This document shows, one piece after another, positions 27,780 through 41,635 of a stretch of 64,000 bases of DNA. How positions within the stretch are numbered: the stretch's first letter is position 1; the number at the start of each line of letters is the position of its first letter. Under the pieces are notes generated by a model, which worked only from the letters and a program-made list of their open reading frames with translations, was not told the DNA's origin and made no database searches. Made by a program: the position numbers and the translations under genes. Origin of the DNA: an uncultured Bdellovibrionales bacterium (GTDB lineage Bacteria > Bdellovibrionota > Bdellovibrionia > Bdellovibrionales > UBA1609); assembly GCA_903833275.1 (NCBI GenBank), contig CAILEP010000013.1:31639-95638 (forward strand), in the 5' to 3' direction.

Positions 27780-29717
27780 TTAGCCGGCACTTTTCTTAAA
27801 AAACTTTGTCACAACTGTTGAAAAGTCGTCGCTAAAATTACTTTTTGATGGGCGCGAATAATTCTGTTTAATGAACATGATTTCGCGTTTGGCATCTTCG
27901 AAAAATGGGTCAAGGCTCATGGCGTGTTTAAAGTGCATATAGGCCTTCTGAACTTGGCCGGTGAGCTCGTAGTACATCCCTCTCACTAGATAGTATTTGG
28001 CCCCGTGCCGATCTTCGTGGGCAACCTTGGGTAGTAGGCTTGAGATCATTTCGGCCAATTCGCGGCGGTTGGCGCGATGCCTTTTTTCTTTAATGAGGGC
28101 CCAGATATAATAAATTATCGTGTCGCTGCGCCGGCCCTTCATGGTCATTGCGCGCTTAAAAGTTTTGCGCGCATCTTTAAAGGCTCGCTGTTGTAACAGG
28201 CGTTGGCCCTCTTCAAAAGTTGATTCAGCTTTAAGAATTTCATCCGCCAAACCGACTTCGAGAGTTCTTACGTAGTTTTCGTGCTTAGCCGGGACGCTAA
28301 GGGTTTGAAAGGCATCCGTAATTTTAGTGAAGATATCTTGGGTCACATTGCGCAACTCTGCCGGGGCGGATTGCGGCAATTTGTCGGGGTGAAATGTCTT
28401 AGCTAGATCGTGGTAGGCACGGTTGATTTCAGAAGGCTTTGCACTGCGTCCGACGCCGAGAGTTTCAAAGTAATTCTGTTTCTGAATATCTTGCCAGATG
28501 CTCGAAAGCCGAGTGAGCTTAGTGTCTGAGCCTTCGCTATAACCCAGTTTTGGCCCGAATCGTAAAATTCTTTGGGCCAACATAAAATAAATCGCGCGAT
28601 AGATATCATTCTCAACTTTTTTGTTAGTCGCCACAATTTCGTGAATAGGGCGGGCCCAAACCTGCGAGCCCGGCATGCGCATAAAGGGTCGTAAGGCCGG
28701 TAGGTCTTTAACCATGTCTAGATGACTTTGGTGCGCACTTAATATCAGAGGGTTGTCAAACCAGTGGGTAAAAAAAGATTTAAGCCACTCAGGGGTTATT
28801 TTTGAACAGATCCAATCGCTACAAAGTTGTGTGAATCGAAAGGCATCGATAAAAACCGTGGGCTCGGCGCGACTGTCAGAAACAAATGAGATTTTAACGC
28901 TGGCATCTTGAATCGTCTTTGAAATACGAATGACCATTTGTTCGTGTTGAACAATTTCAATCGCGTGTGGCGACAAATAAGAGTTCTCAATAAGCATTTC
29001 GCCAATTCTCTTGCCGCCAGAAGTTTGAGCCAAAATCTCTTCGACTTCTTCGGGGGTTGTAAAACCCTTTTCGACGAGCAGCACGCCGAAATAAGATTCG
29101 ACATCCGGGTGTTTGACGAAATCAATTCGGCCTCGGTTGAAGCCAACGTGGCTCGAGCGCCCATCATCGTAGGTGATATTGAGAAACCCCGAAATCTGCG
29201 AATCAAGTAGGAGCGAATAGATAAATGGCAAATCAAAGCCATGCACGAGTTTGGTGTTTTCAATTGCGAGAAGTTTGTCGCGCGCAGAGTATTGTTCTTT
29301 AGCGTAAAGTTGTGGCAGCGGTTCTTGCGCTTCGTCGAGCGTATCGGCAAAGGCCGTGTCGTAAATATCTATCAGTGATTGTAGATCGAACGGCTTATTC
29401 AAAAAGGCTTTAGCGTGGGTTCGAGAAAGCGCATCGCCCGAGAAGGCGCGATCTTTGTAAATGCCGCTAGTGAGAACGGTCACCAATTTGGGGTAGGCGG
29501 CGACATTCTCCGCCACAAAATCGACGCCGTTTTTTTGCGGCAGCAGGCAATCCACCACCATCCCGTGGTAAACAGAAAGCTTTAAAGCCGACTTAGCCAG
29601 TTGAGCAGTGCCCACCAGCTTGACCGTATAACCAGCTCGTTTGAGCCCCTCTTCAAGGGCTCGGCCCAGAGTCGGGTCGTCTTCGACTATGAGAATTTGA
29701 AGTTCTGCCTTTTGCAT
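27780..29717 (-). CDS. Response-regulator receiver / J-domain / TPR fusion protein
   Basis: Receiver domain: LQILIVEDDPTLGRALEEGL...GMVVDCLLPQKNG. J domain: NYFETLGVGRSAKPSEINRAYHDLAKTFHPDK, including the HPD motif. The C-terminus is TPR-like. I chose the start at ATG 29717 (MQKAELQ) to avoid overlapping divergent trxA. Confidence 0.75.
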   Translation of the reverse strand: MQKAELQILIVEDDPTLGRALEEGLKRAGYTVKLVGTAQLAKSALKLSVYHGMVVDCLLPQKNGVDFVAENVAAYPKLVTVLTSGIYKDRAFSGDALSRTHAKAFLNKPFDLQSLIDIYDTAFADTLDEAQEPLPQLYAKEQYSARDKLLAIENTKLVHGFDLPFIYSLLLDSQISGFLNITYDDGRSSHVGFNRGRIDFVKHPDVESYFGVLLVEKGFTTPEEVEEILAQTSGGKRIGEMLIENSYLSPHAIEIVQHEQMVIRISKTIQDASVKISFVSDSRAEPTVFIDAFRFTQLCSDWICSKITPEWLKSFFTHWFDNPLILSAHQSHLDMVKDLPALRPFMRMPGSQVWARPIHEIVATNKKVENDIYRAIYFMLAQRILRFGPKLGYSEGSDTKLTRLSSIWQDIQKQNYFETLGVGRSAKPSEINRAYHDLAKTFHPDKLPQSAPAELRNVTQDIFTKITDAFQTLSVPAKHENYVRTLEVGLADEILKAESTFEEGQRLLQQRAFKDARKTFKRAMTMKGRRSDTIIYYIWALIKEKRHRANRRELAEMISSLLPKVAHEDRHGAKYYLVRGMYYELTGQVQKAYMHFKHAMSLDPFFEDAKREIMFIKQNYSRPSKSNFSDDFSTVVTKFFKKSAG

Positions 29718-29852
29718 GCACTTATCTATCGGAAATTCGTAGGGATAAGTGATGCAATCGCGATAGAATATAGACCTTTGTCGGGTATTGAAGTATTCTA
29801 GGAATTCAAACATATTGAGATAGCCGCATGAGCATGGCGTTAAGGAGTCCAA

Positions 29853-30179
29853 ATGGCCGGATTGACGAACCCAATTACTGATCAAACCTTTGAGCAAGAA
29901 GTTCTTAAATCTTCAACACCTGTGTTGGTTGATTTTTGGGCCGAATGGTGTGGCCCGTGCCGAAGTCTAGCTCCGAAGCTCGAAGAGATTGCGACCGAGA
30001 TGGCAAAGCAGGTGCGTGTCGTTAAAATCAATATCGATGAGAACCCGAATACTCCAGCTAAGTTTGGAATTCGAAGCATTCCGACAATTATCCTTTTCAA
30101 AAATGGCAAAGATGTTGAGCAGCTGCTCGGCAACCTACCCAAAGATAATATCGTCGAAATGATCAAGCGCCACATCTAG
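29853..30179 (+). CDS. trxA: Thioredoxin
   Basis: 108 aa with the WAEWCGPCR active site. Confidence 0.92.
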   Translation: MAGLTNPITDQTFEQEVLKSSTPVLVDFWAEWCGPCRSLAPKLEEIATEMAKQVRVVKINIDENPNTPAKFGIRSIPTIILFKNGKDVEQLLGNLPKDNIVEMIKRHI

Positions 30180-30180
30180 T

Positions 30181-30209
30181 GGAAAAAAGGTACGGCGTAC
30201 CTTTTTTCC
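30181..30209. terminator. Bidirectional rho-independent terminator between convergent trxA and rodA
   Basis: Perfect 13-bp stem GGAAAAAAGGTAC / GTACCTTTTTTCC with a 3-nt loop. Each arm carries an A/T run, so it can terminate both strands. Confidence 0.7.
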
Positions 30210-30211
30210 TT

Positions 30212-31333
30212 CTAGAACAGAAACTTTCGATATGAAACAGACGAAATAATGCCAAGGCTTGCCATGGTGGTGATCATTATCGAGCCACCATAGGACAAAA
30301 GGGGCAGTGGCACGCCCACAATTGGCAATAGGCCAATGACCATCGAGATGTTCACGAAGACGTGCGAAAATAAAATAGCGGCGGCGCCCATGGCCACTAA
30401 AATTCCGAATCGATCACGGGCTTGCGAAGCGATTCGCGCACTCATAAAAAGTAAAATCATGAGAAGGCTTACAACGGTCATGCTGCCGATAAAGCCGTGT
30501 TCTTCGCTCAAGACCGAAAAAATAAAATCGGTGTGGCGCTCGGGCAAAAACTCGAGTTGCGATTGTGTCCCTTTGCGAAAACCTTTGCCGATAATTTTGC
30601 CGCTGCCGACAGCGATTCGCGATTGGATGCTATTGTAACCCGCGCCGCGGGGGTCTTTGCCGGGGGCAATAAACATCAGGACGCGATTTTTTTGATAGGG
30701 TTTAAGGCCGAAGCTCCAAACAAGTGGGGCGGCGACAAGGCTTGTGACCATAAAAAACATCAAAATTGAGGTCTTTACTTTCACGAACAAGATCATGGTA
30801 ATAAAAATCGTGATGAGCAGAAGACCCGTGCCAAGATCGGGTTGCTTTACAATAAGCGCCGTCGGGATGAGCGTCATGATCGACGGGATAATCAGGTCAA
30901 TAAAGCCTAGGCCATCAGGCCGGTTTGCTTTTGAAAGAAGTTTTGCCAGCGCGAAAACCAAAAATATCTTCATCGTTTCGGAAGGCTGATAGTGAAAAAA
31001 ACCAAGATCAAGCCAGCGCTTAGCGCCGAGCGAAGAGTGCCCCGCGATTAAGACAACAGCGAGCGCTGCCACGTTAATTGCGTAAAGCGCGTAGGCGACT
31101 CGGCCAAAAATTTTATAATCAACCAAGGTCATCCCGAGAAAAATACACCAGCCCATTACCAGCCAAACTAGCTGCTGCCAGAACAAATTTGTTTGATTTG
31201 TGAGGTTCACCCCATGTGTCGCGCTGTAAAGGTTGATCAGACCAATCACATTCAGTGCGAGAATGACAAAAATTAAATTCGCGTCGAGGCGTCTAAAGAA
31301 GGTGCGCTCTTCAACCTGCATGTCGAAATTCAT
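30212..31333 (-). CDS. rodA: Rod shape-determining protein RodA (SEDS family)
   Basis: FtsW/RodA/SpoVE family pattern: 10 TM helices, QPSETMKI, and the C-terminal GLLPIVGVPLPLLSYGGS motif. Coupled to mrdA. Confidence 0.9.
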   Translation of the reverse strand: MNFDMQVEERTFFRRLDANLIFVILALNVIGLINLYSATHGVNLTNQTNLFWQQLVWLVMGWCIFLGMTLVDYKIFGRVAYALYAINVAALAVVLIAGHSSLGAKRWLDLGFFHYQPSETMKIFLVFALAKLLSKANRPDGLGFIDLIIPSIMTLIPTALIVKQPDLGTGLLLITIFITMILFVKVKTSILMFFMVTSLVAAPLVWSFGLKPYQKNRVLMFIAPGKDPRGAGYNSIQSRIAVGSGKIIGKGFRKGTQSQLEFLPERHTDFIFSVLSEEHGFIGSMTVVSLLMILLFMSARIASQARDRFGILVAMGAAAILFSHVFVNISMVIGLLPIVGVPLPLLSYGGSIMITTMASLGIISSVSYRKFLF

Positions 31334-33315
31334 TCGTCAGACTCCTCTTCAACCACCACAGGCTTCGATTCGATTTTGGGGGCGTTTTTAGCTTTAATAA
31401 GCTCGGGATGATACTTTTCTATGTAGGCGCGAATCACATCGCGCACGACGGGTGCGGCGCCAACGTTGCCATGGCAGGAGTGTTCGGCCAAAACACCGAC
31501 AATAATCTCCGGGTTTTCTGAAGGGGCAAAGGCGATAAACGAACCGTGATGGCGCTGCATGAGAGGACGAGTTTCACAGCGAGTGAAAATGTCGTCGGCA
31601 CTAAAGGCCATCACTTGGCTGGTGCCAGTTTTGCCGGCCATTTCGACGCCCGGTATCTTCCACCAGCGGGCGGTGCCGTGATCGCCATTAGCAACAAGAC
31701 GCATCGCCTCGCGCACGACGTCGATGTTCTTTGGGTCAACCCGCACGCCCTCAGGCGAAGGCTCGGTGATGTCGCGAACAATCGAGGGTTGAAACTCTTG
31801 TAAAACCTTTTGGTTTTCGTCGACAATTTTTTTAATCAAGATTGGTCGGTAAAGTTTGCCTTTTGTACCGATGGTATTATAGGCAAGTGTCATCTGAAGC
31901 AAATTGACCAACACAAAACCTTGGCCGATGGCATTTGATAGATTTTCACCCGGTTGCCACGCTTCGCCTTTTTGTTTTAACTTCCACTCTTCAGTCGGAA
32001 AGACGCCAGAAGCTTCATTGCTGAGATCGATGCCGGTGCGAGCGCCCAGGCCCATCATTTTCGCATACTTCGCTATGTTGTCGATGCCGAGGGCAATGCC
32101 CATTTTGTAAAAGAAGATGTTACTCGACTGTTCGATGGCCTGATAAATATTAATTCGTCCGTGACCTTGTTTGAGTGAATCATGATAAAGTCGATTGCCG
32201 AATCGCATCTGCCCTGGGGCATCGATGATCGTATTCGGAGTCAAAACGTTTTCTTGTAAAGCCGCCAGTGCCACCACAGGTTTAATTGTCGAGCCCGGTG
32301 AGTAGTGATCTTGAATAATTTTATTTCGCAGCGGTTTGAATTGATCGTTGATCAACTGATTCCACATCTCATTGCTTAGGCCGCGCGCAAATCGATTCGG
32401 ATTAAAAGAAGGGGTGTTCACCCAAGCCAATATTTCACCATTGGTTTTGAGTGCCACCAGACCGCCAATGCGCGGCCCGACTCGATCTGTTTGTTCGAGC
32501 ATGGCTTTGAGAGCCGCCTCTTGAATATCTTTGTCGATAGTCAGGATTATATTATGACCCGGTGTTGCTGGCTGCGGCTTGATCTCAAGAAAGGCTTTAT
32601 TTTGCGTCGGTGACTGCCGGCCATGGGCGTCCACCTCAACATAGCTCAAGCCATTTTTACCACGCAGGTGAAGATCCCAAACCTCTTCGAGACCGCTTTG
32701 GCCAATAATGTCATCTTGTTGAAGAACCGCTTTGCCAAGGTATTTGGTATTATAAGTCTCAAGTTGTTTTTTCGAAACCACGCCCACGTATCCAAAAAGC
32801 TGAGCCCCATTCTGGTCGAGAGGGTAAAAGCGTAATACCATCTCGTCAACGTTCAGCCCCGGGTGCTCAATGCGAATGCGCTTGAGGCGAAAAACCTCTT
32901 CGAGAGAAAGATTTTCTTTAATAACGACCGGGGCGGAGGGCCCGTTTTTTCTTCGGCTGACTTTTACCGCTTCAACAATTTTCGCAGGCTCGATGCTTAG
33001 AATTTTACCAACATCATCGGCGGTGTCTTCAAGATCGGTGGCATATTGCGGAGAAATCGTCGCGTCAAAACCGGTGATATTGTCGACGAGAATGCGGCCT
33101 TCTCGGTCAAGAATTAAGCCTCGCGGTGCACGAATTTTATTTTCTTTAACACGATTTTTCTCTGAGTACTCGCGTAACTCGTCGCCCGATATAATCTGCA
33201 GAAACCAAAGTCGCATGAACATCGCGAGAAGCGTGACCCCGAGTACAAGGTAGACCAGCCGAAAGCGGCTGACCAAATCACGGCCATCATCTTCTGAATT
33301 TTCAAATTCACTCAC
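31330..33315 (-). CDS. mrdA: Penicillin-binding protein 2 (elongasome transpeptidase)
   Basis: N-terminal anchor, then the transpeptidase motifs SPGSTIKP (SxxK), SSN and KTGTSQ (KTG). Synteny: mreC-mreD-mrdA-rodA. Confidence 0.9.
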   Translation of the reverse strand: MSEFENSEDDGRDLVSRFRLVYLVLGVTLLAMFMRLWFLQIISGDELREYSEKNRVKENKIRAPRGLILDREGRILVDNITGFDATISPQYATDLEDTADDVGKILSIEPAKIVEAVKVSRRKNGPSAPVVIKENLSLEEVFRLKRIRIEHPGLNVDEMVLRFYPLDQNGAQLFGYVGVVSKKQLETYNTKYLGKAVLQQDDIIGQSGLEEVWDLHLRGKNGLSYVEVDAHGRQSPTQNKAFLEIKPQPATPGHNIILTIDKDIQEAALKAMLEQTDRVGPRIGGLVALKTNGEILAWVNTPSFNPNRFARGLSNEMWNQLINDQFKPLRNKIIQDHYSPGSTIKPVVALAALQENVLTPNTIIDAPGQMRFGNRLYHDSLKQGHGRINIYQAIEQSSNIFFYKMGIALGIDNIAKYAKMMGLGARTGIDLSNEASGVFPTEEWKLKQKGEAWQPGENLSNAIGQGFVLVNLLQMTLAYNTIGTKGKLYRPILIKKIVDENQKVLQEFQPSIVRDITEPSPEGVRVDPKNIDVVREAMRLVANGDHGTARWWKIPGVEMAGKTGTSQVMAFSADDIFTRCETRPLMQRHHGSFIAFAPSENPEIIVGVLAEHSCHGNVGAAPVVRDVIRAYIEKYHPELIKAKNAPKIESKPVVVEEESDE

Positions 33316-33851
33316 ACGACCTCCGACTCAGTGTGTTTTGGAGGTTCTTTGTTTGTAAGTCGATCGATGGCTGAGAATAAATAAAACAGCGGCAACGAAA
33401 ACGCCGCGGTTAGAATAGGTCGCATCAGCCAGTCGTAAAAGTGAAAATCGACCACGGCGGTTTCTTCGATAATATGAGAGAGGATAAAAGTGGCGAGCGG
33501 AAGAATGAGAGCCGAGATCCCGCACGCTAGCATAAACGAGTTGGGGCCGGCCCACAAAACTCGATCACGAAGCATATACAAAACACCGAGCACGGCCAGG
33601 TTCATACCGAAAGCCATGTCGAGAGGGGCGCCGCTCATGGTGACAACCGCAAAAGAGACAAGGTAGCTCATAATCACCGCCTCGGTGATTGAGCGATAGA
33701 GCGCCCAGTAACTTAAAACAGCGAGCCACATATAAGGCGCCGGAAAGAATCCGAAAACGTGATACCACAGCGACGCCTGAAACCCGGCGAGCACGCAGGT
33801 CGCGATCGCGAATACTAAATAGTTGAGTATTTTGAAACTCAGCTCACGCAT
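33312..33851 (-). CDS. mreD: Rod shape-determining protein MreD
   Basis: 179-aa polytopic membrane protein in the conserved slot between mreC and mrdA. The call is mainly from synteny and topology. Confidence 0.7.
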   Translation of the reverse strand: MRELSFKILNYLVFAIATCVLAGFQASLWYHVFGFFPAPYMWLAVLSYWALYRSITEAVIMSYLVSFAVVTMSGAPLDMAFGMNLAVLGVLYMLRDRVLWAGPNSFMLACGISALILPLATFILSHIIEETAVVDFHFYDWLMRPILTAAFSLPLFYLFSAIDRLTNKEPPKHTESEVV

Positions 33852-34690
33852 CAGTTAACTCGTTCAAGATCTTGATTGTTGGCATTGAGAATAACAAACA
33901 CCTCTTCAAGATTGGCGGCGCTGACGATGGGTTGAAGTGTGACTTCTTGGCCGAGGCCATATTCGTCTTTCTTCACATTGGTCACTTCGCCAATCGGAAA
34001 GCCCTTCGGGAAATAATTATCGATACCGCTTGTGACTACGGTATCACCGTCTTGAACATCGTCGCTTCGTTTAAGAAAAGTCAGCGCGCAAGAGTCTTTG
34101 CTTTGCCCCTGGATAATGCCGCGAGCACGCGATCTTTGCACGATCCCGTCGACCACGGCGTAGCGGTCGGTGATCAGAAGAATTTTTGAGATTTTGGCCT
34201 CGACTTCAATAGCATAGCCGACGACCCCTGAAATGGTAATAACGCCCATGCCCTTTTTTACGCCGTGGTCTTCGCCGCGGTCGATTGTCACAGTGTCGTA
34301 TTCTGTCAGCAAATCGCGGCCGATAATTCGCGCGCCAAGCAAATTCATGTTCGCTTTTTGTTTAAACTCGAGCAGGCGACTCAGGCGTTCATTTTCAAGT
34401 TTAAGCTCGGTGAGGGCCCCGAGTTGCGCTTTAAGTTCGGCCAATTCTTTTTCAAGTTTCTGATTTTTCTTATTAGTGTCGACGAGATTGAGATAATCTT
34501 TGGTTGTACTACGGACCCCCGAGCTGAGCCCGGCATAAGAGTTCTGGGTTGTGGCCGTTAAGTAGTAGAAGGGCTCAAGAATCCAGGGGCGATTTGGGTT
34601 CTGCTGCTGCATGTTGACAGAGAAAAGCGGGATCGCCACGAGAAGCGCGATAGTAAAGATCTTTTTCAGATCAAAATTAAAAAAATTCAA
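33851..34690 (-). CDS. mreC: Rod shape-determining protein MreC
   Basis: N-terminal TM helix, a coiled coil (LEKELAELKAQLGALTELKLENERLSRLLEF), then the beta-rich MreC core with GMGVITISGVVG and FPKGFPIG. Confidence 0.85.
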   Translation of the reverse strand: MNFFNFDLKKIFTIALLVAIPLFSVNMQQQNPNRPWILEPFYYLTATTQNSYAGLSSGVRSTTKDYLNLVDTNKKNQKLEKELAELKAQLGALTELKLENERLSRLLEFKQKANMNLLGARIIGRDLLTEYDTVTIDRGEDHGVKKGMGVITISGVVGYAIEVEAKISKILLITDRYAVVDGIVQRSRARGIIQGQSKDSCALTFLKRSDDVQDGDTVVTSGIDNYFPKGFPIGEVTNVKKDEYGLGQEVTLQPIVSAANLEEVFVILNANNQDLERVN

Positions 34691-34817
34691 GGGATGGTCT
34701 CCTACCCAAATACCCTAGCAAATAGCCGGGTTGTTTCAACTCGATTGTGCTTGATAAAATAGATAAAAAAAGCCAATCTAACGGCTTCGAAAAGTAATTT
34801 AATGAGGAGCATGCCAT

Positions 34818-36302
34818 ATGAGTTCACTGCTGGAACAACTTCGCCACCCAAGTCGCGTTCGTAATATCAAGGCGGTAGTTATTTTCGGGCTCTTTGGATT
34901 GATCTGTCTTATGTTTGTTTTTACCGGTTTGACCCCAGATCGCGGCGGCGTTACCGGCAACTCAACAGCCGCTACTGTCAACCAAACGGTCATTTCAGCC
35001 CAAGACCTTCAAGAGCGCGTGAGTCAGTATGAAGCCCAAGCCGGGCCTGACAAAGGCATGCCTGCCGCTCAGCGCCAAATGCGCACCCAGCGCATCAGAG
35101 AAAACGCGTTGCAGGAGCTTGTGAGCTACGAAGTGGTCTTTCAGTCGGCGCAGAACGCAGGTATTTTACCCACCGCCGCCGCCACCCGCAGTTTGATCGT
35201 AAATATACCGGCATTTCAAGAAGACGGGCGTTTCGCCAGAGAAATGTATCAGCGCTATCTTCAGTATCGAAATATTTCAGCCGGCGAATTTGAATCAAAG
35301 GTGAAACGTGACGTCGTAATTAGTCAGGTTCGCGACATTTTCTTTTCAGCCTGGGCCCAGCCAACCCTAATAGATGATTTGCAGAATCAGGCCCGTGACA
35401 CCAAATTGAACCTCGAGGTCATCAAAATCGACCCGAAGACACTGGCCTCGTCGTCTGTGTCGGCTGAAGACGTCGGCCAATATTTGGCCAAAGCCGAAAA
35501 TAAAGAGAAGGCGAAGTCTTATTTCAGCTCGCATAAAGAGGAGTTTTCGACTCCGGATCAGATTCGAGCGCGTCATATTCTTCTCAAGGGCGACACCGAT
35601 GCGGTTTTGAAAAAGGCCCAAGAAATTAAAAAAGGCCTCACCAAGGCCAATTTTGCCGAACAGGCCAAGAAATTCTCTGAAGATCAGGGGTCGAAAGACA
35701 AGGGCGGCGATCTTAACTATTTCAGTCGCGGGCAGATGGTGCCCGAATTTGAAGCGGTGGCATTTGGTCTAAAAGTTGGCCAGATTTCAGAGCCGGTAAA
35801 ATCGCCGTTTGGCTATCACATCATTTTGCTCGACGATAAGCGTGCGGCCGAAGTTAAAACTTTCGAAGTTGCTGAAAAAGAAATTGCTCGTAATTTGGCG
35901 GCCGAAGAAAAGCGCGAAAAGGTGAATGAAGAATTCGCAACCGGGCTTAAAGGCAAAGGCGATATCGGTGGCTTGTTAGCGCGTTATAATTTGAAATGGC
36001 AAGATTTAGGGGCTGTTTCAGTTACTCAAAATTTTATCGATAAAGTTGAATCCGGCGACCAGATTATTGAGGCCGCGTTGAATTTGAAACCTGGTCAAGT
36101 TTACCCAGATCTTGTTCGGGCCGGGCCACAAAGTTATGTGGTGCGACTGAAATCAGTGGTGGTTGCCGCTGAAAAATCGGATAGCAAAAAATCAGCATCT
36201 TCACTCGCGCGATTTGGCGGGGGCGGCGAAGCTTTGGGTCTTTGGGCCGAAGAACTTCGTAAAGAATCTCGAATTCGTTTGAACGATTCGATGATGAAAT
36301 AG
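34818..36302 (+). CDS. PpiD/SurA-like parvulin-type peptidyl-prolyl isomerase chaperone
   Basis: N-terminal membrane anchor (AVVIFGLFGLICLMFVF). Parvulin domain: IRARHILLKGD...FSEDQGSKDKGGDLNYFSRGQMVPEFEAVAF...SPFGYHIILL. Confidence 0.8.
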   Translation: MSSLLEQLRHPSRVRNIKAVVIFGLFGLICLMFVFTGLTPDRGGVTGNSTAATVNQTVISAQDLQERVSQYEAQAGPDKGMPAAQRQMRTQRIRENALQELVSYEVVFQSAQNAGILPTAAATRSLIVNIPAFQEDGRFAREMYQRYLQYRNISAGEFESKVKRDVVISQVRDIFFSAWAQPTLIDDLQNQARDTKLNLEVIKIDPKTLASSSVSAEDVGQYLAKAENKEKAKSYFSSHKEEFSTPDQIRARHILLKGDTDAVLKKAQEIKKGLTKANFAEQAKKFSEDQGSKDKGGDLNYFSRGQMVPEFEAVAFGLKVGQISEPVKSPFGYHIILLDDKRAAEVKTFEVAEKEIARNLAAEEKREKVNEEFATGLKGKGDIGGLLARYNLKWQDLGAVSVTQNFIDKVESGDQIIEAALNLKPGQVYPDLVRAGPQSYVVRLKSVVVAAEKSDSKKSASSLARFGGGGEALGLWAEELRKESRIRLNDSMMK

Positions 36303-36335: not shown

Positions 36336-36373
36336 TCTCAACTTGAGCTGTCTCACGTTGAGATTTTTTATTT
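36336..36373 (+). terminator. Rho-independent terminator after the ppiD-like gene
   Basis: TCTCAAC ... GTTGAGA stem (alternative inner stem TCTCA/TGAGA), followed directly by TTTTTTATTT. Confidence 0.55.
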
Positions 36374-36464: not shown

Positions 36465-38423
36465 ATGGTTCGCATTTTCTTGAAGCTCACAATTTATCTT
36501 TTGATGTTTCTGTCATTCGCATCCTATGCGCATGGGCAGAACACCAATAGCCAAAACGCCGCGGGCCAAATGCAACCGTCATTGAATGGGCATCATTACA
36601 TCGAAGGCGAACTCATCATAAAATTAAAGGGGGCGTCTGGCCCTACGGTGCTTGGCCGAGCCGCCAAGTCGATTCATGCCGGCGCGTTTCTATCGCGAGC
36701 CTCTGGCCAACACAACATGTCGCTGAGAAGCTCATACCCTGAAATGGGCGTCTATCATTTTAAGTTGAAGGCCGGTCAAAGGGTGTCTGAAGCCCTTACC
36801 AATTTAAAAAACGATCCAGATATCGAGTATGCTGAGCCCAATTTTACTTTTTCTAAATCGAGCGTGGTTTCGGCAACGCAGTACTATACCGCATCCCAAG
36901 TGGTGTCGATGTCGTCGGCTGCCTCAGGTGGGTACCTCGCCACCGGCGCCGCCATTGAAGTGACTAGCTCGTGGGGCCAGGTGTCGCGAAATACGACTCC
37001 GATAGTGGCCATTATCGACACCGGGCTTGATACGGCTCACCCAGTTTTTGTGGGCACGGGCGCGGTTTGGACTAACCCCGGTGAAATCCCGAACAATCAA
37101 ATCGACGATGACCGCAATGGATATATAGACGACGTTCACGGTTTTAACTTTGTATCGAATACCGGTGAAATGATCGACGATGATGGTCACGGAACGCACT
37201 GTGCGGGTATTGTCCTTGGCGTCGGTCAGAATATATATGGAGCCGCCTATTCTCCATCGCTTATTAAAATCATGCCCCTCAAATTTTTGGATGGCTCAGG
37301 CTACGGCCAAACATCGGATGCCATTCGCGCGATTTATTATGCAGTAAATAATGGCGCTTCAGTTATTAGCAATTCTTGGGGCGGCCCTGATTATTCGGCG
37401 GCGCTACAAGAGGCCATCGCCTACGCCTACGATGCAGGTGTTATATTTGTTGCGGCGGCTGGTAACAACAGCGCAAACAATGACGTATCAACGATGTATC
37501 CGGCAAACTATACCGTCCCCAATGTGGTGTCTGTTGCCGCCACAACTGATGACGATTCACTGGCTTACTTTTCAGATTTTGGAGCCACTTCAGTCCCGCT
37601 CGCAGCACCCGGGATGATGATTATCAGCACGATGCCGGGCGGTGGCTTTCAAACAATGTCGGGCACGAGTATGGCGACCCCGTTTGTCGCTGGTTTAGCG
37701 GCCCTTATGAAGGCGCAGCAACCAGGGTTGCTCTCTTATCAGGCGAAACAATTGATCATGGGCAATATCGATGTGCCCCAAAATTCTCATGGTGCAAGGT
37801 TGCTTGCCGGCAAAACCAGTACGCAGGGGCGACTCAACGTTTACAATACGATTGAGGCTACAAAAAACGCCACGATTCAAACAGATCAGCCGGCCTATAC
37901 TTTTACCAATATCGATCGGCAGCTCGCGTCTTCAATCGCGGCGTCTGGTTGCGGCCTCGTTAAGAAAATGATCAATGAAGGGCCCAACGACACTTTCGGT
38001 GGTGGTCAAGGTGCGCCCGAATCATGGTCTGTTCTGGTTGTGCTTGGGCTCTTCGCCTTGCCAATTTTGATTTACAATTCTCTTCGCCGTAAAGAACAAG
38101 TTCAGCGCCGTCAACATGATCGCTTTAAAATCGACACCCAAGTCAAAGTTCAAGTTGGCGGCCGCGACCTTGTTGGCTCAATCAGCAGCATCTCGTTGGG
38201 TGGAGTGCAGCTCAATACCGATGCCCTCATCGAACAGGGCGGTATCGTCAGCATGGCAATCCGTAGCCCCGATGGTGCCGAGCAAATCAAGATCGAAGGT
38301 CGTATTGTTTGGAGTGAAGATCAAAAATCTTACGGTGTGCAATTCGCCGAAACGACGGCGACAATTCGCGAGCAAATTAGTTCATGGACAACCGGACTAC
38401 AGAAAGTACCCGTTAAAAAATGA
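36465..38423 (+). CDS. S8 subtilisin-like serine protease fused via one TM helix to a C-terminal PilZ domain
   Basis: Signal peptide MVRIFLKLTIYLLMFLSFASYAHG. S8 triad contexts AIIDTGLD, HGTHCAG and GTSMATP. TM helix WSVLVVLGLFALPILIYNSL at 38025-38084. The 112-aa tail carries PilZ motifs RQHDR (RxxxR) and SISLGG (D/N-x-S-x-x-G with Ser in the first position). Confidence 0.8.
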   Translation: MVRIFLKLTIYLLMFLSFASYAHGQNTNSQNAAGQMQPSLNGHHYIEGELIIKLKGASGPTVLGRAAKSIHAGAFLSRASGQHNMSLRSSYPEMGVYHFKLKAGQRVSEALTNLKNDPDIEYAEPNFTFSKSSVVSATQYYTASQVVSMSSAASGGYLATGAAIEVTSSWGQVSRNTTPIVAIIDTGLDTAHPVFVGTGAVWTNPGEIPNNQIDDDRNGYIDDVHGFNFVSNTGEMIDDDGHGTHCAGIVLGVGQNIYGAAYSPSLIKIMPLKFLDGSGYGQTSDAIRAIYYAVNNGASVISNSWGGPDYSAALQEAIAYAYDAGVIFVAAAGNNSANNDVSTMYPANYTVPNVVSVAATTDDDSLAYFSDFGATSVPLAAPGMMIISTMPGGGFQTMSGTSMATPFVAGLAALMKAQQPGLLSYQAKQLIMGNIDVPQNSHGARLLAGKTSTQGRLNVYNTIEATKNATIQTDQPAYTFTNIDRQLASSIAASGCGLVKKMINEGPNDTFGGGQGAPESWSVLVVLGLFALPILIYNSLRRKEQVQRRQHDRFKIDTQVKVQVGGRDLVGSISSISLGGVQLNTDALIEQGGIVSMAIRSPDGAEQIKIEGRIVWSEDQKSYGVQFAETTATIREQISSWTTGLQKVPVKK

Positions 38424-38934
38424 AGCGGAATTTCGCCATAAGATCGGTCTGCAGATAACCACGGTACACGTCTTTGCCGAACCAGCTAGCAAAAGACATC
38501 GACTCGGCACCGAACGAAATCGCCGGTGTAAAATCATATAAGAGGCCAATAGCCCAGCTTGGCCCAAGAAGGGTTTGGCTGCCACTGTTGTCAGTTGGTT
38601 TTACGAAAAGAATACCGAAGCCAGGTGAAACATAAAGATCCCACTGCTGGCGGCTAAAGTGCGGGCGAATAAAAGCACCAACAGTTGTGATGCCGCGAGC
38701 GCCAAGCGTTTGATCGTCTGGATCAATGCGAAAATAACCACCAAGGCCGAAAGTTCGGTTGAAGCCATTTTCAAAATCAAGACCGAGGGCGGCGCCGCCA
38801 TGTGTGAAACCAAAGTTCACAAGAAGTGCATTCTTGCCTTCGGCCAAGTCGGCATGAGCTGCGCTTGTCATAAGAGTCGTTAAAGAAATAAGAATCGACG
38901 TGATTACAGCGTAAATCAATCGCGAGCTCGTCAT
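38413..38934 (-). CDS. Small outer-membrane beta-barrel protein (OmpW/OmpA-barrel-like)
   Basis: Signal peptide ending AAHA. Alternating Gly/aromatic beta-strand pattern, and a C-terminal aromatic signature KFRFIF. Confidence 0.6.
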   Translation of the reverse strand: MTSSRLIYAVITSILISLTTLMTSAAHADLAEGKNALLVNFGFTHGGAALGLDFENGFNRTFGLGGYFRIDPDDQTLGARGITTVGAFIRPHFSRQQWDLYVSPGFGILFVKPTDNSGSQTLLGPSWAIGLLYDFTPAISFGAESMSFASWFGKDVYRGYLQTDLMAKFRFIF

Positions 38935-38950: not shown

Positions 38951-39388
38951 TTATGCTTTTGGAGCCCAAGAGTTACAGCTGCCTTTTGCGTCTACAAGAA
39001 CTTTAGGTAGAAGCGCGCAAGTGGCTTTAACAGGAGTGGCTTTTGTCATATTGAAAAGAGCGCAGTTATCGCAAGTCTGCTCGCCAGCTTTCCAAACTTT
39101 GCCAGCGGCCCCAGGTTTGTCAGCTTTTGTAGCTTTTTTTGCTTTAAGAGCGGCATCAAGATTGCTGACATAACCGATTCCGGCGGCAATTTTTACGCTT
39201 TCTTCGTTAGCGGCGTCTTTACGCTTCGCTTTTGTCATGTCGATAAGGCCGAGTTCTTCAGCGGCCCAGGTCACACTGCGAGCGAGAGCTTGTACGACAA
39301 CCCCTGCGCTTGTGTAAAAAATAATTTTTTTGAAAAATTCGCGGCGGGCACTGATAGTCTGGTTGTTAGTTTCAGTAGGTGTGTTCAT
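38951..39388 (-). CDS. High-potential iron-sulfur protein (HiPIP) with Tat signal
   Basis: Twin-arginine motif ARREFFKK. The C-terminal cysteine pattern is C-x2-C-x14-C-x13-C-x2-W (CDNC...C...CNSW), giving the classical HiPIP 3/15/14 spacing. Confidence 0.75.
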   Translation of the reverse strand: MNTPTETNNQTISARREFFKKIIFYTSAGVVVQALARSVTWAAEELGLIDMTKAKRKDAANEESVKIAAGIGYVSNLDAALKAKKATKADKPGAAGKVWKAGEQTCDNCALFNMTKATPVKATCALLPKVLVDAKGSCNSWAPKA

Positions 39389-40198: not shown

Positions 40199-41635
40199 CT
40201 AGTGGGTGCGGGTCAGGTTGTTCTGGTTGATAAGGTCGCGAAGATCGTGGCCAAACCCAGATAGATTGGCCGGGTCTCGTATTGTAAGGCGGTTGTCGTC
40301 GACCTGAAGCTCTTGCTGGCCAACTTGTTGGCCAGGTTGGTGGTCGATCGAAAACTGCGCCTTCGGGATATTGGCGGTATTAACCGGTATTGAGCCTGAA
40401 ACATTGACCCCACCATCAAGAATCGCCAGCGCTCTGTAGGCGTTGAGACGCTTCTGGTACCGGGTTTTGCCGGCCAGCTTGCCGGGCTCAAGGTCGCCGG
40501 TTTCGGTAAGGTGGCGAATAATTCTTTGGGCATCAAAGTCGCCGAAGCGAGCCTTGATAAGGGCCGCAACACCGGTCACGACGGCTGTGGCCTGCGAGGT
40601 GCCTGTCATATATCCATAGTTGCCACCAGGTAACGTGGAGTAAATCTTTTTACCTGGAGCTGCAATATCAACCGATTGTTCGCCGTAGTTGCTTGAGGGC
40701 AGTACGTTGCGGTCTTCGTCGAAGGCCGTGACCGAGATAATATTGTCGAGGCCATAATCGGCGGGGTAGTACTTTTTGATATCCGAGTTCGACTGTTCGT
40801 TGCCGGCGGCGGCGACAAAGAGAATTCCCTTTTCGCGAGCAAGGGCAATGGCATCGCGTTCTTTATCGCTGGGCTCTAGACCGCCGCCCGAGTAGTTAAT
40901 GATGTTGGCGCCTTTTTGCACGCAGTAGCGAATCGCGCGTACGGTGTTAACCAGGTTATTGTTATTGGTTGATTCGGGGTCGTAGTATTTGGCGATAATA
41001 AGAGTGACGTGTGGGCTCACGCCGATGGCCCCGCGGCCGTTGACTCCTCCAGCGGCGCCGATGGCGCCGGCGATGTGGGTGCCATGACCGTGATGATCTG
41101 TGAGGTCGCCGTTGTTCGCGATAAAGTTACAGCCATGGATGTCGTCGACGCAGCCATCAGCATCGTCGTCGACTTGGTTGGTGGCCTTATCGCGGCCAAA
41201 CTGATCGCGACCACTTTCACCAGGGTTCACCCAAAGGTTCGGCTTGAGGTCAGGATGGTTGACATCGACGCCGGTGTCGATCACGCAGACCTTAACGTCC
41301 TTGCTGCCAAGGGCACGATGGCGCACCCAGGCTTCTTGAGTTTGTATCGATTTGAGATCCCACTTTTGTGACATAGCGGGGTCGTTTAAAAGCGCATCGA
41401 TTTCTTTTGTGGATTCGACTTTGGCCTTCATCGGTTCGCCGAGTTGGGTTTGGCGCACGGTCTTCGAGTTTCGGAGGCTGGCGAGATCGGCTTGCTCATC
41501 ATAGTTGGATTCGCTGCGCAGTTGGGCCACTCGCGCCATGTTGAATTGAATGGCGATAACGAGAGAGATAACACCGGCCCCAAATAGGATAAGGCCCTTT
41601 CTATCTCGTTTGTGTTGACCTTTCTGCTGAGCCAT
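40199..41635 (-). CDS. Secreted S8 subtilisin-like serine protease
   Basis: N-terminal anchor or signal (LILFGAGVISLVIAIQF). Triad contexts CVIDTGVD, HGHGTHIAG and GTSQATA. AAAGAGGTG ribosome-binding site upstream of the ATG. Confidence 0.85.
   Translation of the reverse strand: MAQQKGQHKRDRKGLILFGAGVISLVIAIQFNMARVAQLRSESNYDEQADLASLRNSKTVRQTQLGEPMKAKVESTKEIDALLNDPAMSQKWDLKSIQTQEAWVRHRALGSKDVKVCVIDTGVDVNHPDLKPNLWVNPGESGRDQFGRDKATNQVDDDADGCVDDIHGCNFIANNGDLTDHHGHGTHIAGAIGAAGGVNGRGAIGVSPHVTLIIAKYYDPESTNNNNLVNTVRAIRYCVQKGANIINYSGGGLEPSDKERDAIALAREKGILFVAAAGNEQSNSDIKKYYPADYGLDNIISVTAFDEDRNVLPSSNYGEQSVDIAAPGKKIYSTLPGGNYGYMTGTSQATAVVTGVAALIKARFGDFDAQRIIRHLTETGDLEPGKLAGKTRYQKRLNAYRALAILDGGVNVSGSIPVNTANIPKAQFSIDHQPGQQVGQQELQVDDNRLTIRDPANLSGFGHDLRDLINQNNLTRTH

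What the first reader, a model, noticed from the sequence alone, without database searches (positions are those of the whole stretch)
36465..38423. Subtilase-TM-PilZ fusion: an exported S8 protease tethered to a cytoplasmic c-di-GMP-receptor-type domain
The ORF combines four parts:

- a cleavable-looking signal peptide;
- a complete S8 catalytic domain (DTG, HGTH, GTSMATP);
- a single TM helix at 38025-38084;
- a 112-aa C-terminal tail with the PilZ motifs RQHDR (RxxxR) and SISLGG (the D/NxSxxG motif, with Ser in place of D/N).

The predicted topology puts the protease outside the cytoplasmic membrane and the PilZ domain inside. This suggests second-messenger control of the activity, release or localisation of an extracytoplasmic protease. 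I am not aware of this architecture having been characterised.
Basis: partly seen in the sequence, partly recalled or inferred. Interest (0 to 1): 0.65.

Follow-up and report, generated by a model that had tools for sequence, protein, structure and literature searches.

The report
Membrane-tethered subtilase with cytoplasmic PilZ domain
This gene encodes a subtilisin-type protease that sits outside the inner membrane and is tied by one membrane helix to a cytoplasmic c-di-GMP-receptor (PilZ) domain; the design is conserved across Bdellovibrio-like bacteria and was catalogued in 2008, but I found no functional study of it.

Summary
ORF 36465-38423 (+), 652 aa, has five parts:
- a signal peptide;
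- an I9-like propeptide;
- a complete S8 catalytic domain (Pfam E 1e-51);
- one TM helix (aa 521-540);
- a 112-aa tail that matches Pfam PilZ at 61-66 bits (cut-off 22.5).

In 238 full-length relatives the catalytic D/H/N/S, both Arg of RxxxR, and the Ser and Gly-Gly of xxSxGG are invariant or nearly so. The D/N position is always Thr or Ser. The PilZ domain is as conserved as the protease domain (59% against 62% mean pairwise identity).

The architecture is not new as a catalogue entry. A 2008 survey lists "Subt-PilZ" for one B. bacteriovorus HD100 protein. I identify that protein as Bd2545, which is 43% identical to the window protein end to end. Bd2545 was counted among that organism's pilZ genes in 2010. 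It is attack-phase enriched in both transcriptome and proteome data. I found no functional study.

Most likely it is an inner-membrane-tethered periplasmic zymogen protease whose localisation, oligomeric state or release responds to cytoplasmic c-di-GMP. Two unexplained features point to a processing or dimerisation step: an invariant lone Cys (GCG) next to the membrane and an invariant Pro in the middle of the TM helix.

The parts
36336..36369 (+). Hairpin followed by a run of six T just after the upstream ppiD-like gene. It is a probable intrinsic terminator, so the S8-PilZ gene is probably its own transcription unit.
   Evidence: Sequence read. The RNA fold gives -14.2 kcal/mol, z = -4.4, with 0 of 200 shuffles folding as well.
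36465..38423 (+). Complete ORF, 652 aa plus stop: signal peptide, propeptide, S8 domain, linker, TM helix, PilZ domain.
   Evidence: An identical protein (P0001) occurs on metagenome contigs of about 100-118 kb.
36465..36536 (+). Sec-type signal peptide (aa 1-24). R3 and K7 form the n-region, followed by a hydrophobic core; the predicted cleavage site is A-H-G|Q.
   Evidence: Hydropathy. Q25 and the A-x-(A/G)-Q pattern are nearly invariant in the family. No dedicated signal-peptide predictor was available.
36567..36842 (+). Fervidolysin-type (I9-like) N-terminal propeptide, aa 35-126. This implies the protein is made as a zymogen.
   Evidence: Pfam PF22148, E 4.9e-9, 36.9 bits against a cut-off of 21. 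The AF2 model shows alternating strands and helices at pLDDT 78-95. Foldseek matches pro-subtilisin and SUB1 pro-plus-catalytic structures.
36996..37769 (+). Peptidase S8 catalytic domain, aa 178-435. Catalytic residues: D185 (nt 37017-37019), H242 (37188-37190), oxyanion N339 (37479-37481), S402 (37668-37670). It also carries an invariant acidic loop, D214-D215-x-x-N218-G219-x-x-D222-D223.
   Evidence: Pfam E 1.3e-51. D185, H242, N339 and S402 are invariant in 238 of 238 members. The closest solved structure is deseasin MCP-01, 3vv3: phmmer E 4e-64 and Foldseek TM-score 0.83 with 41% identity. pLDDT exceeds 90.
37911..37973 (+). Conserved periplasmic juxtamembrane motif, aa 483-503: DRxLASxxA-x-x-G-C-G-x-V-x-K. 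The invariant Cys496 is at nt 37950-37952.
   Evidence: C496 and G497 are present in 238 of 238 members, and C496 is the only Cys in 147 of 238 proteins. Its function is unexplained.
37974..38021 (+). Variable Gly/Pro/Ser-rich tether, aa 504-519.
   Evidence: Its length is 5-25 aa across the family, with 36% Gly, 13% Pro and 10% Ser. pLDDT is below 50.
38025..38084 (+). Single transmembrane helix, aa 521-540, with the invariant Pro533. It is followed by a basic cluster, RRKEQVQRR.
   Evidence: Kyte-Doolittle peak of 2.14. AF2 predicts a helix at 521-543 with pLDDT 79-84. P533 is present in 238 of 238 members. Net charge is +3.4 after the helix and -0.3 before it.
38103..38390 (+). PilZ domain, aa 547-642. 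R548-R549-x-x-x-R553 lies at nt 38106-38123. S575-I-S577-L-G579-G580 lies at nt 38187-38204.
   Evidence: Pfam PF07238 at 60.9 bits, or 65.8 bits for the tail alone, against a cut-off of 22.5. R549, R553, G579 and G580 are invariant, S577 is present in 234 of 238, and I576 in 222 of 238. In the phmmer alignment to the B. subtilis protein YpfA (5vx6), S575 lines up with the N of the chain's NISAGG and RRQHDR with RRQYVR. The tail model has six strands and a C-terminal helix, but pLDDT is only 63.

Best explanation
The gene encodes a type I, single-pass inner-membrane protein.

**Proposed sequence of events**
1. A Sec signal peptide exports the N-terminal part.
2. That part is a subtilase zymogen: an I9-like propeptide followed by an active S8 domain related to deseasin MCP-01.
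3. The zymogen folds and self-activates in the periplasm.
4. It stays tied to the membrane through a conserved juxtamembrane motif, a flexible Gly-rich tether and one TM helix.
5. The C-terminal 112 aa form a canonical-type PilZ domain in the cytoplasm. This domain most likely binds c-di-GMP through RRxxxR and [T/S]-I-S-x-G-G.

**Proposed function**

c-di-GMP occupancy is passed across or along the membrane to control where and when the protease acts. It could do so by changing oligomeric state or partner and subcellular localisation, or by gating cleavage in the juxtamembrane or TM region that frees the protease. This would be a one-polypeptide counterpart of inside-out c-di-GMP control of periplasmic proteolysis.

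**What is shown and what is inferred**
- Shown: domain content, intact catalytic and ligand-binding motifs, topology signals, equally strong purifying selection on both domains, and orthology to B. bacteriovorus Bd2545, an attack-phase protein.
- Inferred: c-di-GMP binding.
- Speculative: the mode of coupling.
For: **Domains and motifs**
- Pfam assigns the S8, PilZ and propeptide domains.
- The catalytic D/H/N/S residues and R549, R553, G579 and G580 are invariant in 238 of 238 members, and S577 is present in 234.
- Mean pairwise identity is 0.59 for PilZ against 0.62 for S8, so both are under equal constraint.

**Topology**
- There are two hydrophobic segments only, and the positive-inside rule holds.
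- AF2 gives pLDDT above 90 for the S8 domain and about 80 for the TM helix.
- Structural neighbours are pro-subtilisins and deseasin MCP-01.

**Ligand binding**
- A Ser at the D/N position is compatible with binding, as in PA2989 (10.1101/814665).
- The RRxxxR and xxSxGG motifs align with those of the B. subtilis PilZ-domain protein YpfA (5vx6).

**Fixed pairing of the two halves**
- The GCG-TM-PilZ module was found only on S8 proteins in a search of 1.84 billion representatives: every long hit with E below 1e-14 that I scanned was an S8 fusion.

**Orthologue data**
- Bd2545 is 43% identical over aa 31-647 and was identified through synteny.
- It was detected with 13 unique peptides. Abundance is highest from attack phase to 1 h and about 2.5-fold lower at 4 h.
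- Its transcript falls on leaving attack phase.

**Related architecture**
- Other architectures in which PilZ domains share a polypeptide with a normally periplasmic domain have the next most similar PilZ domains: PilZ-PilZ-TonB_C proteins.
Against: - No binding or activity data exist for any family member in the literature I could search.
- The canonical D/N of the second motif is never present in this family.
- AF2 models the N-terminal half of the PilZ domain poorly (pLDDT 36-51).
- Foldseek gives only non-significant PilZ matches, best E 0.18.
- A family profile finds no solved PilZ structure at E up to 0.01.
- How a single TM helix followed by a floppy Gly-rich tether could pass a conformational signal to the protease is unclear. 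That argues for control of localisation, oligomerisation or release rather than allosteric control of catalysis.
- No diguanylate cyclase or phosphodiesterase gene appears among the genes Pfam-scanned in about 14-53 kb of the window.
Confidence: 0.6

Rival explanations
1. Release or sorting model. The conserved GCG motif, the Gly-rich linker, the Pro-containing TM helix and the basic cluster act as a processing or sorting signal, in the manner of MYXO-CTERM or GlyGly-CTERM signals. The protease would be cut from its anchor, possibly lipidated on Cys496, and then passed to the cell surface or the medium. The PilZ domain left behind would only gate or time that cleavage. This overlaps with the best explanation and is a specific version of its "release" branch.
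For: - C496-G497 is invariant, and C496 is the only Cys in 147 of 238 members, so it has no disulfide partner within the chain.
- Pro533 in the middle of the TM helix is invariant. From general knowledge, helix-breaking residues are typical of substrates of intramembrane proteases.
- A Gly-rich segment lies just before the TM helix and an Arg/Lys cluster just after it.
- Known precedents from my own knowledge: the V. cholerae protease VesB with rhombosortase, and Myxococcus MYXO-CTERM proteins.
Against: - No NCBIfam model, including the sorting-signal models, matches the 33-75 aa linker/TM constructs at E up to 10.
- The Cys lies 24-42 residues before the mid-TM Pro, farther than in MYXO-CTERM as I recall it.
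- A folded 112-aa domain follows the TM helix, whereas known sorting signals end the protein.
- No rhombosortase, exosortase or CPBP-type gene appears among the Pfam-scanned genes.
- No other ORF in about 230 kb of held loci has a similar tail.
Confidence: 0.25
2. The tail is a PilZ-fold adaptor that does not bind c-di-GMP, like the type II PilZ proteins of Xanthomonas. It would simply dock the membrane protease to a cytoplasmic partner or to a cell pole.
For: [quoted passage not shown]
- Sequence similarity to solved c-di-GMP-bound PilZ domains is weak.
- The partial Foldseek matches with the highest probability (0.77-0.90) are to the PilZ proteins XC1028 and XAC1133; the title of entry 3dsg describes XC1028 as having "trivial c-di-GMP binding activity". 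These matches cover only about 53 columns, and the top-ranked hit by E-value is c-di-GMP-bound Alg44.
Against: - R549 and R553 are invariant and R/K548 is present in 208 of 238 members. S577, G579 and G580 are conserved and the hydrophobic I576 is kept. Non-binding PilZ proteins have lost exactly these motifs (10.1101/814665).
- A Ser at the D/N position still allows binding in PA2989.
Confidence: 0.12
3. Outside-in model. [quoted passage not shown] That state could be substrate engagement, autoprocessing or shedding. The signal would then run from the envelope to the cytoplasm rather than the other way.
For: Only the architecture itself and the equal conservation of both domains support this. 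Nothing specific does.
Against: - The characterised PilZ proteins I know of are receptors that control an attached or partner output (general knowledge; review).
- The orthologue's abundance is low, about 5 on a log2 scale that reaches above 10. That makes a c-di-GMP sink role unlikely.
Confidence: 0.05

Closest known systems
Bd2545 (Q6MK66, CAE80343.1) of Bdellovibrio bacteriovorus HD100, the 'Subt-PilZ' architecture of Tripathi & Sowdhamini 2008
   Same: It is an orthologue: 43% identity over aa 31-647. It has the same order of parts, namely signal peptide, propeptide, S8, GCG motif, Gly linker, TM helix with Pro, RRxHDRFK and xTISxGG. It belongs to the same family of at least 238 full-length members.
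   Different: The genomic neighbourhood differs. Bd2545 lies between a DUF502 gene and mgtE. The window gene lies between a ppiD-like gene and an OMP/HiPIP pair, next to mreCD-pbp2-rodA. Bd2545 itself has only expression data and no functional study.
Deseasin MCP-01 (PDB 3vv3) and pro-subtilisins or SUB1
   Same: MCP-01 is the closest solved catalytic domain: phmmer E 4e-64, 41% identity, TM-score 0.83. The arrangement of propeptide and catalytic domain resembles pro-subtilisin E, Tk-subtilisin and SUB1.
   Different: None of the C-terminal domains I recall for secreted MCP-01 (P-proprotein, PKD) was detected by Pfam. Instead the protein has a membrane anchor and a cytoplasmic PilZ domain.
Mycosins (MycP, the subtilases associated with type VII secretion)
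   Same: The layout is similar: signal peptide, subtilase domain, then a C-terminal TM anchor. The mycosin model is the best NCBIfam hit (TIGR03921, 131.6 bits).
   Different: The score is far below the family cut-off of 278.75. No T7SS genes are nearby. As I recall them, mycosins have only a short cytoplasmic tail and no PilZ domain, and they occur in Actinobacteria and Firmicutes.
Alg44 and BcsA (PilZ domains fused to membrane-embedded secretion or synthesis machinery)
   Same: A cytoplasmic PilZ domain sits in the same polypeptide as a membrane-spanning segment and an extracytoplasmic or membrane output. The Alg44 PilZ domain is the top, non-significant Foldseek hit for the tail.
   Different: From general knowledge, Alg44 has its PilZ domain at the N-terminus and a periplasmic HlyD-like domain, and BcsA is a multi-pass glycosyltransferase. 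Neither is a protease. Here the PilZ domain is C-terminal, follows a single TM helix, and the output is an S8 protease.
The LapD-LapG system of Pseudomonas (inside-out c-di-GMP control of a periplasmic protease)
   Same: It is a functional analogy only: cytoplasmic c-di-GMP sensing governs a periplasmic protease.
   Different: From general knowledge, LapD senses through a degenerate EAL domain and sequesters a separate cysteine protease, LapG. Here the receptor is a PilZ domain, the protease is a serine S8 enzyme, and both lie in one chain. No HAMP, GGDEF, EAL or LapG-type domain was detected.

Membership tests
Peptidase S8 (subtilase) | Match to PF00082 above the gathering score | tested here: met
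   176.1 bits against a cut-off of 21.8, E 1.3e-51, aa 178-435.
Peptidase S8 (subtilase) | Catalytic triad in the order Asp-His-Ser, with the oxyanion Asn | tested here: met
   D185 (DTG), H242 (HGTH), N339 and S402 (GTSMA) are invariant in 238 of 238 relatives.
Peptidase S8 (subtilase) | Subtilisin fold with an N-terminal inhibitor or chaperone propeptide | tested here: met
   AF2 pLDDT exceeds 90 for the domain. Foldseek to 3vv3 gives TM-score 0.83, and there are matches to pro-subtilisins. PF22148 scores 36.9 bits against a cut-off of 21.
Canonical c-di-GMP-binding PilZ domain (PF07238) | Match to the PilZ profile above the gathering score, over the full length | tested here: met
   60.9 bits, or 65.8 for the tail alone, against a cut-off of 22.5. 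Profile positions 1-100 of 102 are covered.
Canonical c-di-GMP-binding PilZ domain (PF07238) | RxxxR motif at the N-terminal edge of the domain | tested here: met
   R549-QHD-R553 is preceded by R548. R549 and R553 are invariant in 238 of 238 members.
Canonical c-di-GMP-binding PilZ domain (PF07238) | [D/N]hSxxG motif | tested here: inconclusive
   The sequence is S575-I-S577-L-G-G. The h, S and G positions are conserved, but position 1 is Thr or Ser in 237 of 238 members and never D or N. The same Ser substitution occurs in PA2989, which is reported to bind c-di-GMP (10.1101/814665).
Canonical c-di-GMP-binding PilZ domain (PF07238) | Six-stranded beta-barrel with a C-terminal helix | tested here: inconclusive
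   The model has six strands (E20-29, E32-41, E59-65, E72-82, E87-92 in the tail model; the full-length model shows a comparable set) followed by a terminal helix. Confidence is low (pLDDT 63.5), and the best Foldseek hits are PilZ domains only at E 0.18 or worse.
Canonical c-di-GMP-binding PilZ domain (PF07238) | Specific binding of c-di-GMP | not testable with these tools
   This needs DRaCALA, ITC or MST on the purified tail. The capture-compound dataset of Rotem et al. 2016 (PMC4686195) is not held.
Mycosin (T7SS subtilase, TIGR03921) | Score above the equivalog cut-off, and a T7SS gene neighbourhood | tested here: not met
   131.6 bits against a cut-off of 278.75. The neighbours are ppiD, mreCD-pbp2-rodA, an OMP gene, a HiPIP gene and rpsD.
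C-terminal sorting signals (MYXO-CTERM, PEP-CTERM, GlyGly-CTERM) | Match to a sorting-signal model, with the signal at the extreme C-terminus | tested here: not met
   No NCBIfam hit at E up to 10 for three linker/TM constructs. A 112-aa PilZ domain follows the TM helix.
Anti-phage defence subtilases (PADLOC; IteS) | Specific model match and a defence-island context | tested here: not met
   Only the generic PADLOC "subtilase" model matches, at 83.9 bits. IteS scores E 0.14. The gene sits in a conserved housekeeping neighbourhood.

The most novel reading that the evidence does not exclude
The family would be the first direct fusion of a c-di-GMP receptor to a protease. In this reading it works as a single-polypeptide inside-out switch. 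c-di-GMP binding to the cytoplasmic PilZ domain drives dimerisation, perhaps locked by the lone periplasmic Cys496. Alternatively it licenses cleavage at the juxtamembrane motif or the Pro-containing TM helix, so that an active subtilase is deployed from the inner membrane. In predatory Bdellovibrio this would couple the c-di-GMP burst required for prey invasion to envelope or prey proteolysis.
Probability: 0.3. Interest if true: 0.72.

Novelty: new member of a known kind. Interest (0 to 1): 0.5.

Why it matters
c-di-GMP is known to control extracytoplasmic proteolysis only indirectly, through LapD and LapG. A receptor and a protease in one chain would be the simplest such device and a clean model for signalling across a single TM helix.

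The family is conserved in every Bdellovibrio genome named in the hit lists and in related Pseudobdellovibrionaceae MAGs. Its HD100 member, Bd2545, is an attack-phase protein in a genetically tractable predator whose prey invasion depends on c-di-GMP, so the hypothesis can be tested directly.

The value of this particular window is modest. It adds a divergent orthologue (43% identical) and a different, conserved neighbourhood. It also helped reveal family-wide invariants that the catalogue mentions of the architecture I could read do not describe: the lone Cys, the mid-TM Pro and Thr/Ser at the D/N position.

Tried and rejected
It returned just Bdellovibrio sp. HCB288 and an unrelated Halobacillus subtilase. 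An alignment query would have reached further.
2. A homology search with the TM helix plus tail alone returned only 5 short fragments and gave no information on architecture.
4. AF2 on the tail with a 98-row alignment gave pLDDT of only 63.5. Foldseek against the PDB gave PilZ domains on top, but none significant.
5. A family profile of the tail against PDB sequences gave no hit at E up to 0.01.
6. NCBIfam on the linker/TM constructs, to test the sorting-signal idea, gave no hits. A regex and hydropathy scan of the held loci for other Cys-TM-RR tails found nothing convincing.
7. From accession arithmetic I guessed that the HD100 orthologue was Bd2692. That was wrong. Genome position and neighbours identify Bd2545.
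8. Rotem et al. 2016, the c-di-GMP capture-compound proteomics study, is not in the library. The supplement of the Tn-seq paper does not use Bd locus tags.
9. I considered a defence-system reading and rejected it (and the conserved housekeeping context).
10. I considered an operon with ppiD and judged it unlikely, because a strong terminator hairpin lies between the two genes.
Full report

Yes. ORF 36465..38423 (+) is intact and encodes 652 aa.

Pfam finds three domains:
- Fervidolysin_NPro-like propeptide, aa 35-126, E 4.9e-9.
- Peptidase_S8, aa 178-435, E 1.3e-51.
- PilZ, aa 547-642, 60.9 bits against a gathering score of 22.5. The tail alone scores 65.8 bits and covers 100 of 102 profile positions.

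A hydropathy scan shows exactly two hydrophobic segments. One is the N-terminal signal peptide (aa 1-22..SYAHG|Q). The other is aa 520-540, which is nt 38025-38084.

No NCBIfam equivalog passes its cut-off. The best hit is the T7SS mycosin model, at 131.6 bits against a cut-off of 278.75.

**2. Is it a chance fusion or a family?**

It is a family.
- All 120 best database hits to the window protein (47-100% identity, about 590-675 aa) carry PF00082 plus PF07238.
- So do all 120 best hits to the orthologue from Bdellovibrio sp. HCB288.
- Named members come from B. bacteriovorus (HD100, Tiberius and others), B. svalbardensis, B. reynosensis, many Bdellovibrio sp. isolates, and Bdellovibrionales or Pseudobdellovibrionaceae MAGs.
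- A few MAG labels (Nitrospira, Bacillota, Cellvibrio) are probably binning errors. That is my inference.
- The window itself matches metagenome contigs of about 100-118 kb.

Conservation in an alignment of 238 full-length members:

| Feature | Conservation |
|---|---|
| D185, H242, N339, S402 | invariant |
| Acidic loop D214, N218-G219, D222-D223 | invariant (D215 in 236 of 238) |
| R549, R553 | invariant |
| R/K548 | 208 of 238 |
| Position 575 | Thr 146, Ser 91, Cys 1; never D or N |
| I576 | 222 of 238 |
| S577 | 234 of 238 |
| G579, G580 | invariant |
| W616, Y623, G624, W641 | invariant |

Mean pairwise identity is 0.59 for PilZ and 0.62 for the catalytic domain. It is 0.43 for the propeptide and 0.35 for the TM helix. 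Both functional halves are therefore under comparably strong purifying selection, as expected if the PilZ ligand site is in use.

A search of 1.84 billion representative proteins with aa 476-652 gave 287 hits at E below 1e-3 and 83 below 1e-10. The six long or partial hits with strong scores that I scanned were all S8-PilZ proteins. The next most similar PilZ domains are in multi-PilZ proteins ending in TonB_C. The juxtamembrane-TM-PilZ module was thus found only with this subtilase.

**3. Topology**

Across the family, net charge is -0.3 in the 12 residues before the TM helix and +3.4 in the 12 residues after it.

AF2, run on the full length with 76 aligned sequences, gives mean pLDDT 81:
- The propeptide is mostly at 78-95 and the S8 core mostly above 90.
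- The helix at 521-543 is at about 80.
- The linker at 495-517 is disordered, below 50.
- The PilZ domain has an N-terminal half, including RxxxR and the first two strands, at 36-51. Its C-terminal half is at 63-79.

The signal peptide, a single TM helix and the positive-inside rule together place the protease outside the cytoplasm and the PilZ domain inside it. With an inner-membrane anchor and a tether of only 5-25 residues, the active domain should be periplasmic unless it is cleaved off. That last point is inference.

**4. The protease**

- The closest solved structure is the subtilase deseasin MCP-01 (3vv3): phmmer E 4e-64, Foldseek TM-score 0.83, 41% identity.
- Matches covering both propeptide and catalytic domain go to Plasmodium SUB1, pro-subtilisin E, Tk-subtilisin and fervidolysin.
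- I therefore expect the usual subtilase path: the propeptide assists folding, is then cut off by the enzyme itself and is degraded. This follows from established knowledge of the family and was not tested.

**5. The PilZ domain**

- The RRxxxR and xhSxGG motifs are present. In the phmmer alignment to the B. subtilis protein YpfA (5vx6), S575 lines up with the Asn of the chain's NISAGG and RRQHDR with RRQYVR.
- The missing D/N is a trait of the whole family. Galperin & Chou report that PA2989, with a typical RxxxR and a Ser at this position, binds c-di-GMP. They also note that PilZ domains in fusion proteins invariably retain binding motifs (10.1101/814665).
- The structural tests were inconclusive. 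The tail model has pLDDT 63.5 with six strands and a C-terminal helix. The top Foldseek hits are the Alg44 and other PilZ domains, but only at E 0.18 or worse. A family profile finds no PDB sequence at E up to 0.01.
- I rate c-di-GMP binding as likely, about 0.7, but unproven.

**6.

(a) A conserved periplasmic juxtamembrane motif, DRxLASxxA-x-x-G-C-G-x-V-x-K (aa 483-503).
- C496-G497 is invariant in 238 of 238 members.
- This Cys is the only cysteine in 147 of 238 proteins, and no second conserved Cys exists. It cannot form a conserved intramolecular disulfide.

(b) A variable Gly/Pro/Ser-rich tether.

(c) An invariant Pro533 in the middle of the TM helix.

These features suggest dimerisation through an intermolecular disulfide, or a lipidation or processing site. 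A GC motif, a TM helix and a basic cluster recall MYXO-CTERM and GlyGly-CTERM sorting signals; that comparison is from memory. However, no NCBIfam model matches, the spacing is longer, and a folded domain follows the helix. I record this as unexplained.

**7. Context**

In the window the gene order is:
- REC-DnaJ-TPR protein (-)
- rodA, pbp2, mreD-like, mreC (-)
- ppiD/SurA-like PPIase (+, 34818-36302)
- S8-TM-PilZ (+)
- a small OMP-like gene (-, overlapping the stop codon by 11 nt)
- HiPIP (-)
- rpsD (-)
- a second subtilase without a PilZ domain (40199-41635, 38% identical in the catalytic domain)

- The block of mreC-to-rodA, ppiD, S8-PilZ and the OMP gene (with HiPIP beyond it in L003 and L004 but not L005) recurs in three relatives at 48-61% identity (L003, L004, L005).
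- It does not recur in the genus Bdellovibrio, where the gene lies between a DUF502 gene and mgtE.
- A hairpin of -14.2 kcal/mol (z = -4.4) followed by a run of six T lies right after ppiD. The gene is therefore probably transcribed on its own.
- I read the synteny as residence in a stable core-genome region, not as a functional operon.
- No GGDEF, EAL or HD-GYP gene, and no rhomboid, CPBP or exosortase gene, appears among the genes scanned in about 14-53 kb.
- PADLOC gives only a generic subtilase match.

**8. What is known**

- Tripathi & Sowdhamini 2008 list Subt-PilZ as a single-occurrence architecture (NP_969350.1, B. bacteriovorus), labelled only "Signalling" (PMC2605481).
- A 2020 review notes that PilZ occurs with Peptidase_S8 among 221 Pfam architectures (PMC7288161).
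- I identified the HD100 protein as follows. Cluster P0163 includes CAE80343.1, "Subtilisin like serine protease", from strain ATCC 15356. Its locus, at about 2.455 Mb of a 3.78-Mb genome, is flanked by a DUF502 gene and mgtE plus two ABC transporter genes. In the proteome supplement of PMC12546842 these correspond to Bd2546, Bd2544, Bd2543 and Bd2542, with Bd2545 annotated "Subtilisin like serine protease, peptidase S8 family".
- Bd2545 is 43% identical to the window protein over aa 31-647, including the GCG motif, the TM Pro, RRxHDRFK and TISQGG.
- Lambert et al. 2010 name Bd2545 among three pilZ genes that are significantly down-regulated on leaving attack phase (PMC2797640).
- In the 2025 proteome it was seen with 13 unique peptides at low abundance. 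Values on the log2 scale are 5.02 in attack phase, 5.17 at 1 h, 3.71 at 4 h and 4.09 at 7 h. I inferred the log2 scale from Bd2269.
- "Bd2545" occurs in the main text of only that one relevant paper. Searches combining PilZ with subtilase, subtilisin, Peptidase_S8 or protease found no functional work.

**9. Verdict**

The finding is real and correctly read. The gene is a new, divergent member of a family that has been catalogued but not studied experimentally.

Compared with characterised c-di-GMP effectors, the family is a distinct variant:
- Its membrane-plus-PilZ logic resembles that of Alg44 and BcsA.
- Its biological logic, cytoplasmic c-di-GMP governing periplasmic proteolysis, resembles that of LapD and LapG.
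- Its anchoring resembles that of mycosins.
- It is a member of none of these (see the membership tests).

The most likely mechanism is c-di-GMP-dependent control of the localisation, oligomerisation or release of a tethered periplasmic subtilase. Allosteric control of catalysis through a floppy tether seems less likely.

Interest is moderate at 0.5. It is a directly testable and potentially instructive signalling device in a tractable predator. The architecture itself has been in the databases and the literature since 2008.

Noticed in passing
window 37950-37952 (Cys496) within 37911-37973: A juxtamembrane GCG motif is invariant in 238 of 238 family members. This Cys is the only cysteine in 147 of 238 proteins. 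Pro533 in the middle of the TM helix (nt 38061-38063) is also invariant. The roles of both residues are unknown; dimerisation, lipidation or a cleavage site are candidates.
   Followed up: partly
window 40199-41635 (-): A second subtilase lies 1.8 kb downstream. It is 477 aa, matches Peptidase_S8 at E 5e-52, and is 38% identical to the S8-PilZ catalytic domain, including the acidic DDDxxGxxDD loop. It has no TM helix or PilZ domain. It is absent from the syntenic loci L003-L005.
   Followed up: partly
window 49660-52321 (-): Two adjacent, slightly overlapping ORFs encode RamC_N plus a protein kinase domain (50918-52321) and a LanC-like cyclase (49660-50928). They look like a split class III/IV lanthipeptide synthetase. 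TetR- and LysR-type regulator genes lie just downstream.
   Followed up: no
window 27780-36302 and loci L003, L004, L005: A block is conserved across relatives whose S8-PilZ proteins are only 48-61% identical. It runs: REC-DnaJ-TPR protein, thioredoxin, rodA-pbp2-mreD-mreC, a divergent ppiD-like PPIase, S8-PilZ, a small OMP gene; a HiPIP gene follows the OMP gene in L003 and L004 but not L005. In L004 an AAA_14/DUF4143 gene is inserted between ppiD and S8-PilZ.
   Followed up: yes
proteins P0338, P0340, P0345 (representative library): Outside the family, the PilZ domains most similar to this one are in proteins of 720-1060 aa that have two or three PilZ domains and a C-terminal TonB_C domain. 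This is another architecture that combines PilZ domains with a normally periplasmic domain in one polypeptide.
   Followed up: partly
window 38413-38934 (-) and 38951-39388 (-): A small 173-aa OMP beta-barrel-like gene converges on the S8-PilZ gene and overlaps its stop codon by 11 nt. It is followed by a HiPIP gene with a Tat-like RREFFKK signal. The OMP-like gene keeps this position in all three syntenic relatives (no Pfam hit on record for the L005 copy); the HiPIP gene follows it in L003 and L004 only.
   Followed up: partly
window 36336-36369: A strong hairpin (-14.2 kcal/mol, z = -4.4) followed by a run of six T lies after the ppiD-like gene. The consensus terminator scan missed it, probably because of one mismatch in the stem.
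   Followed up: yes
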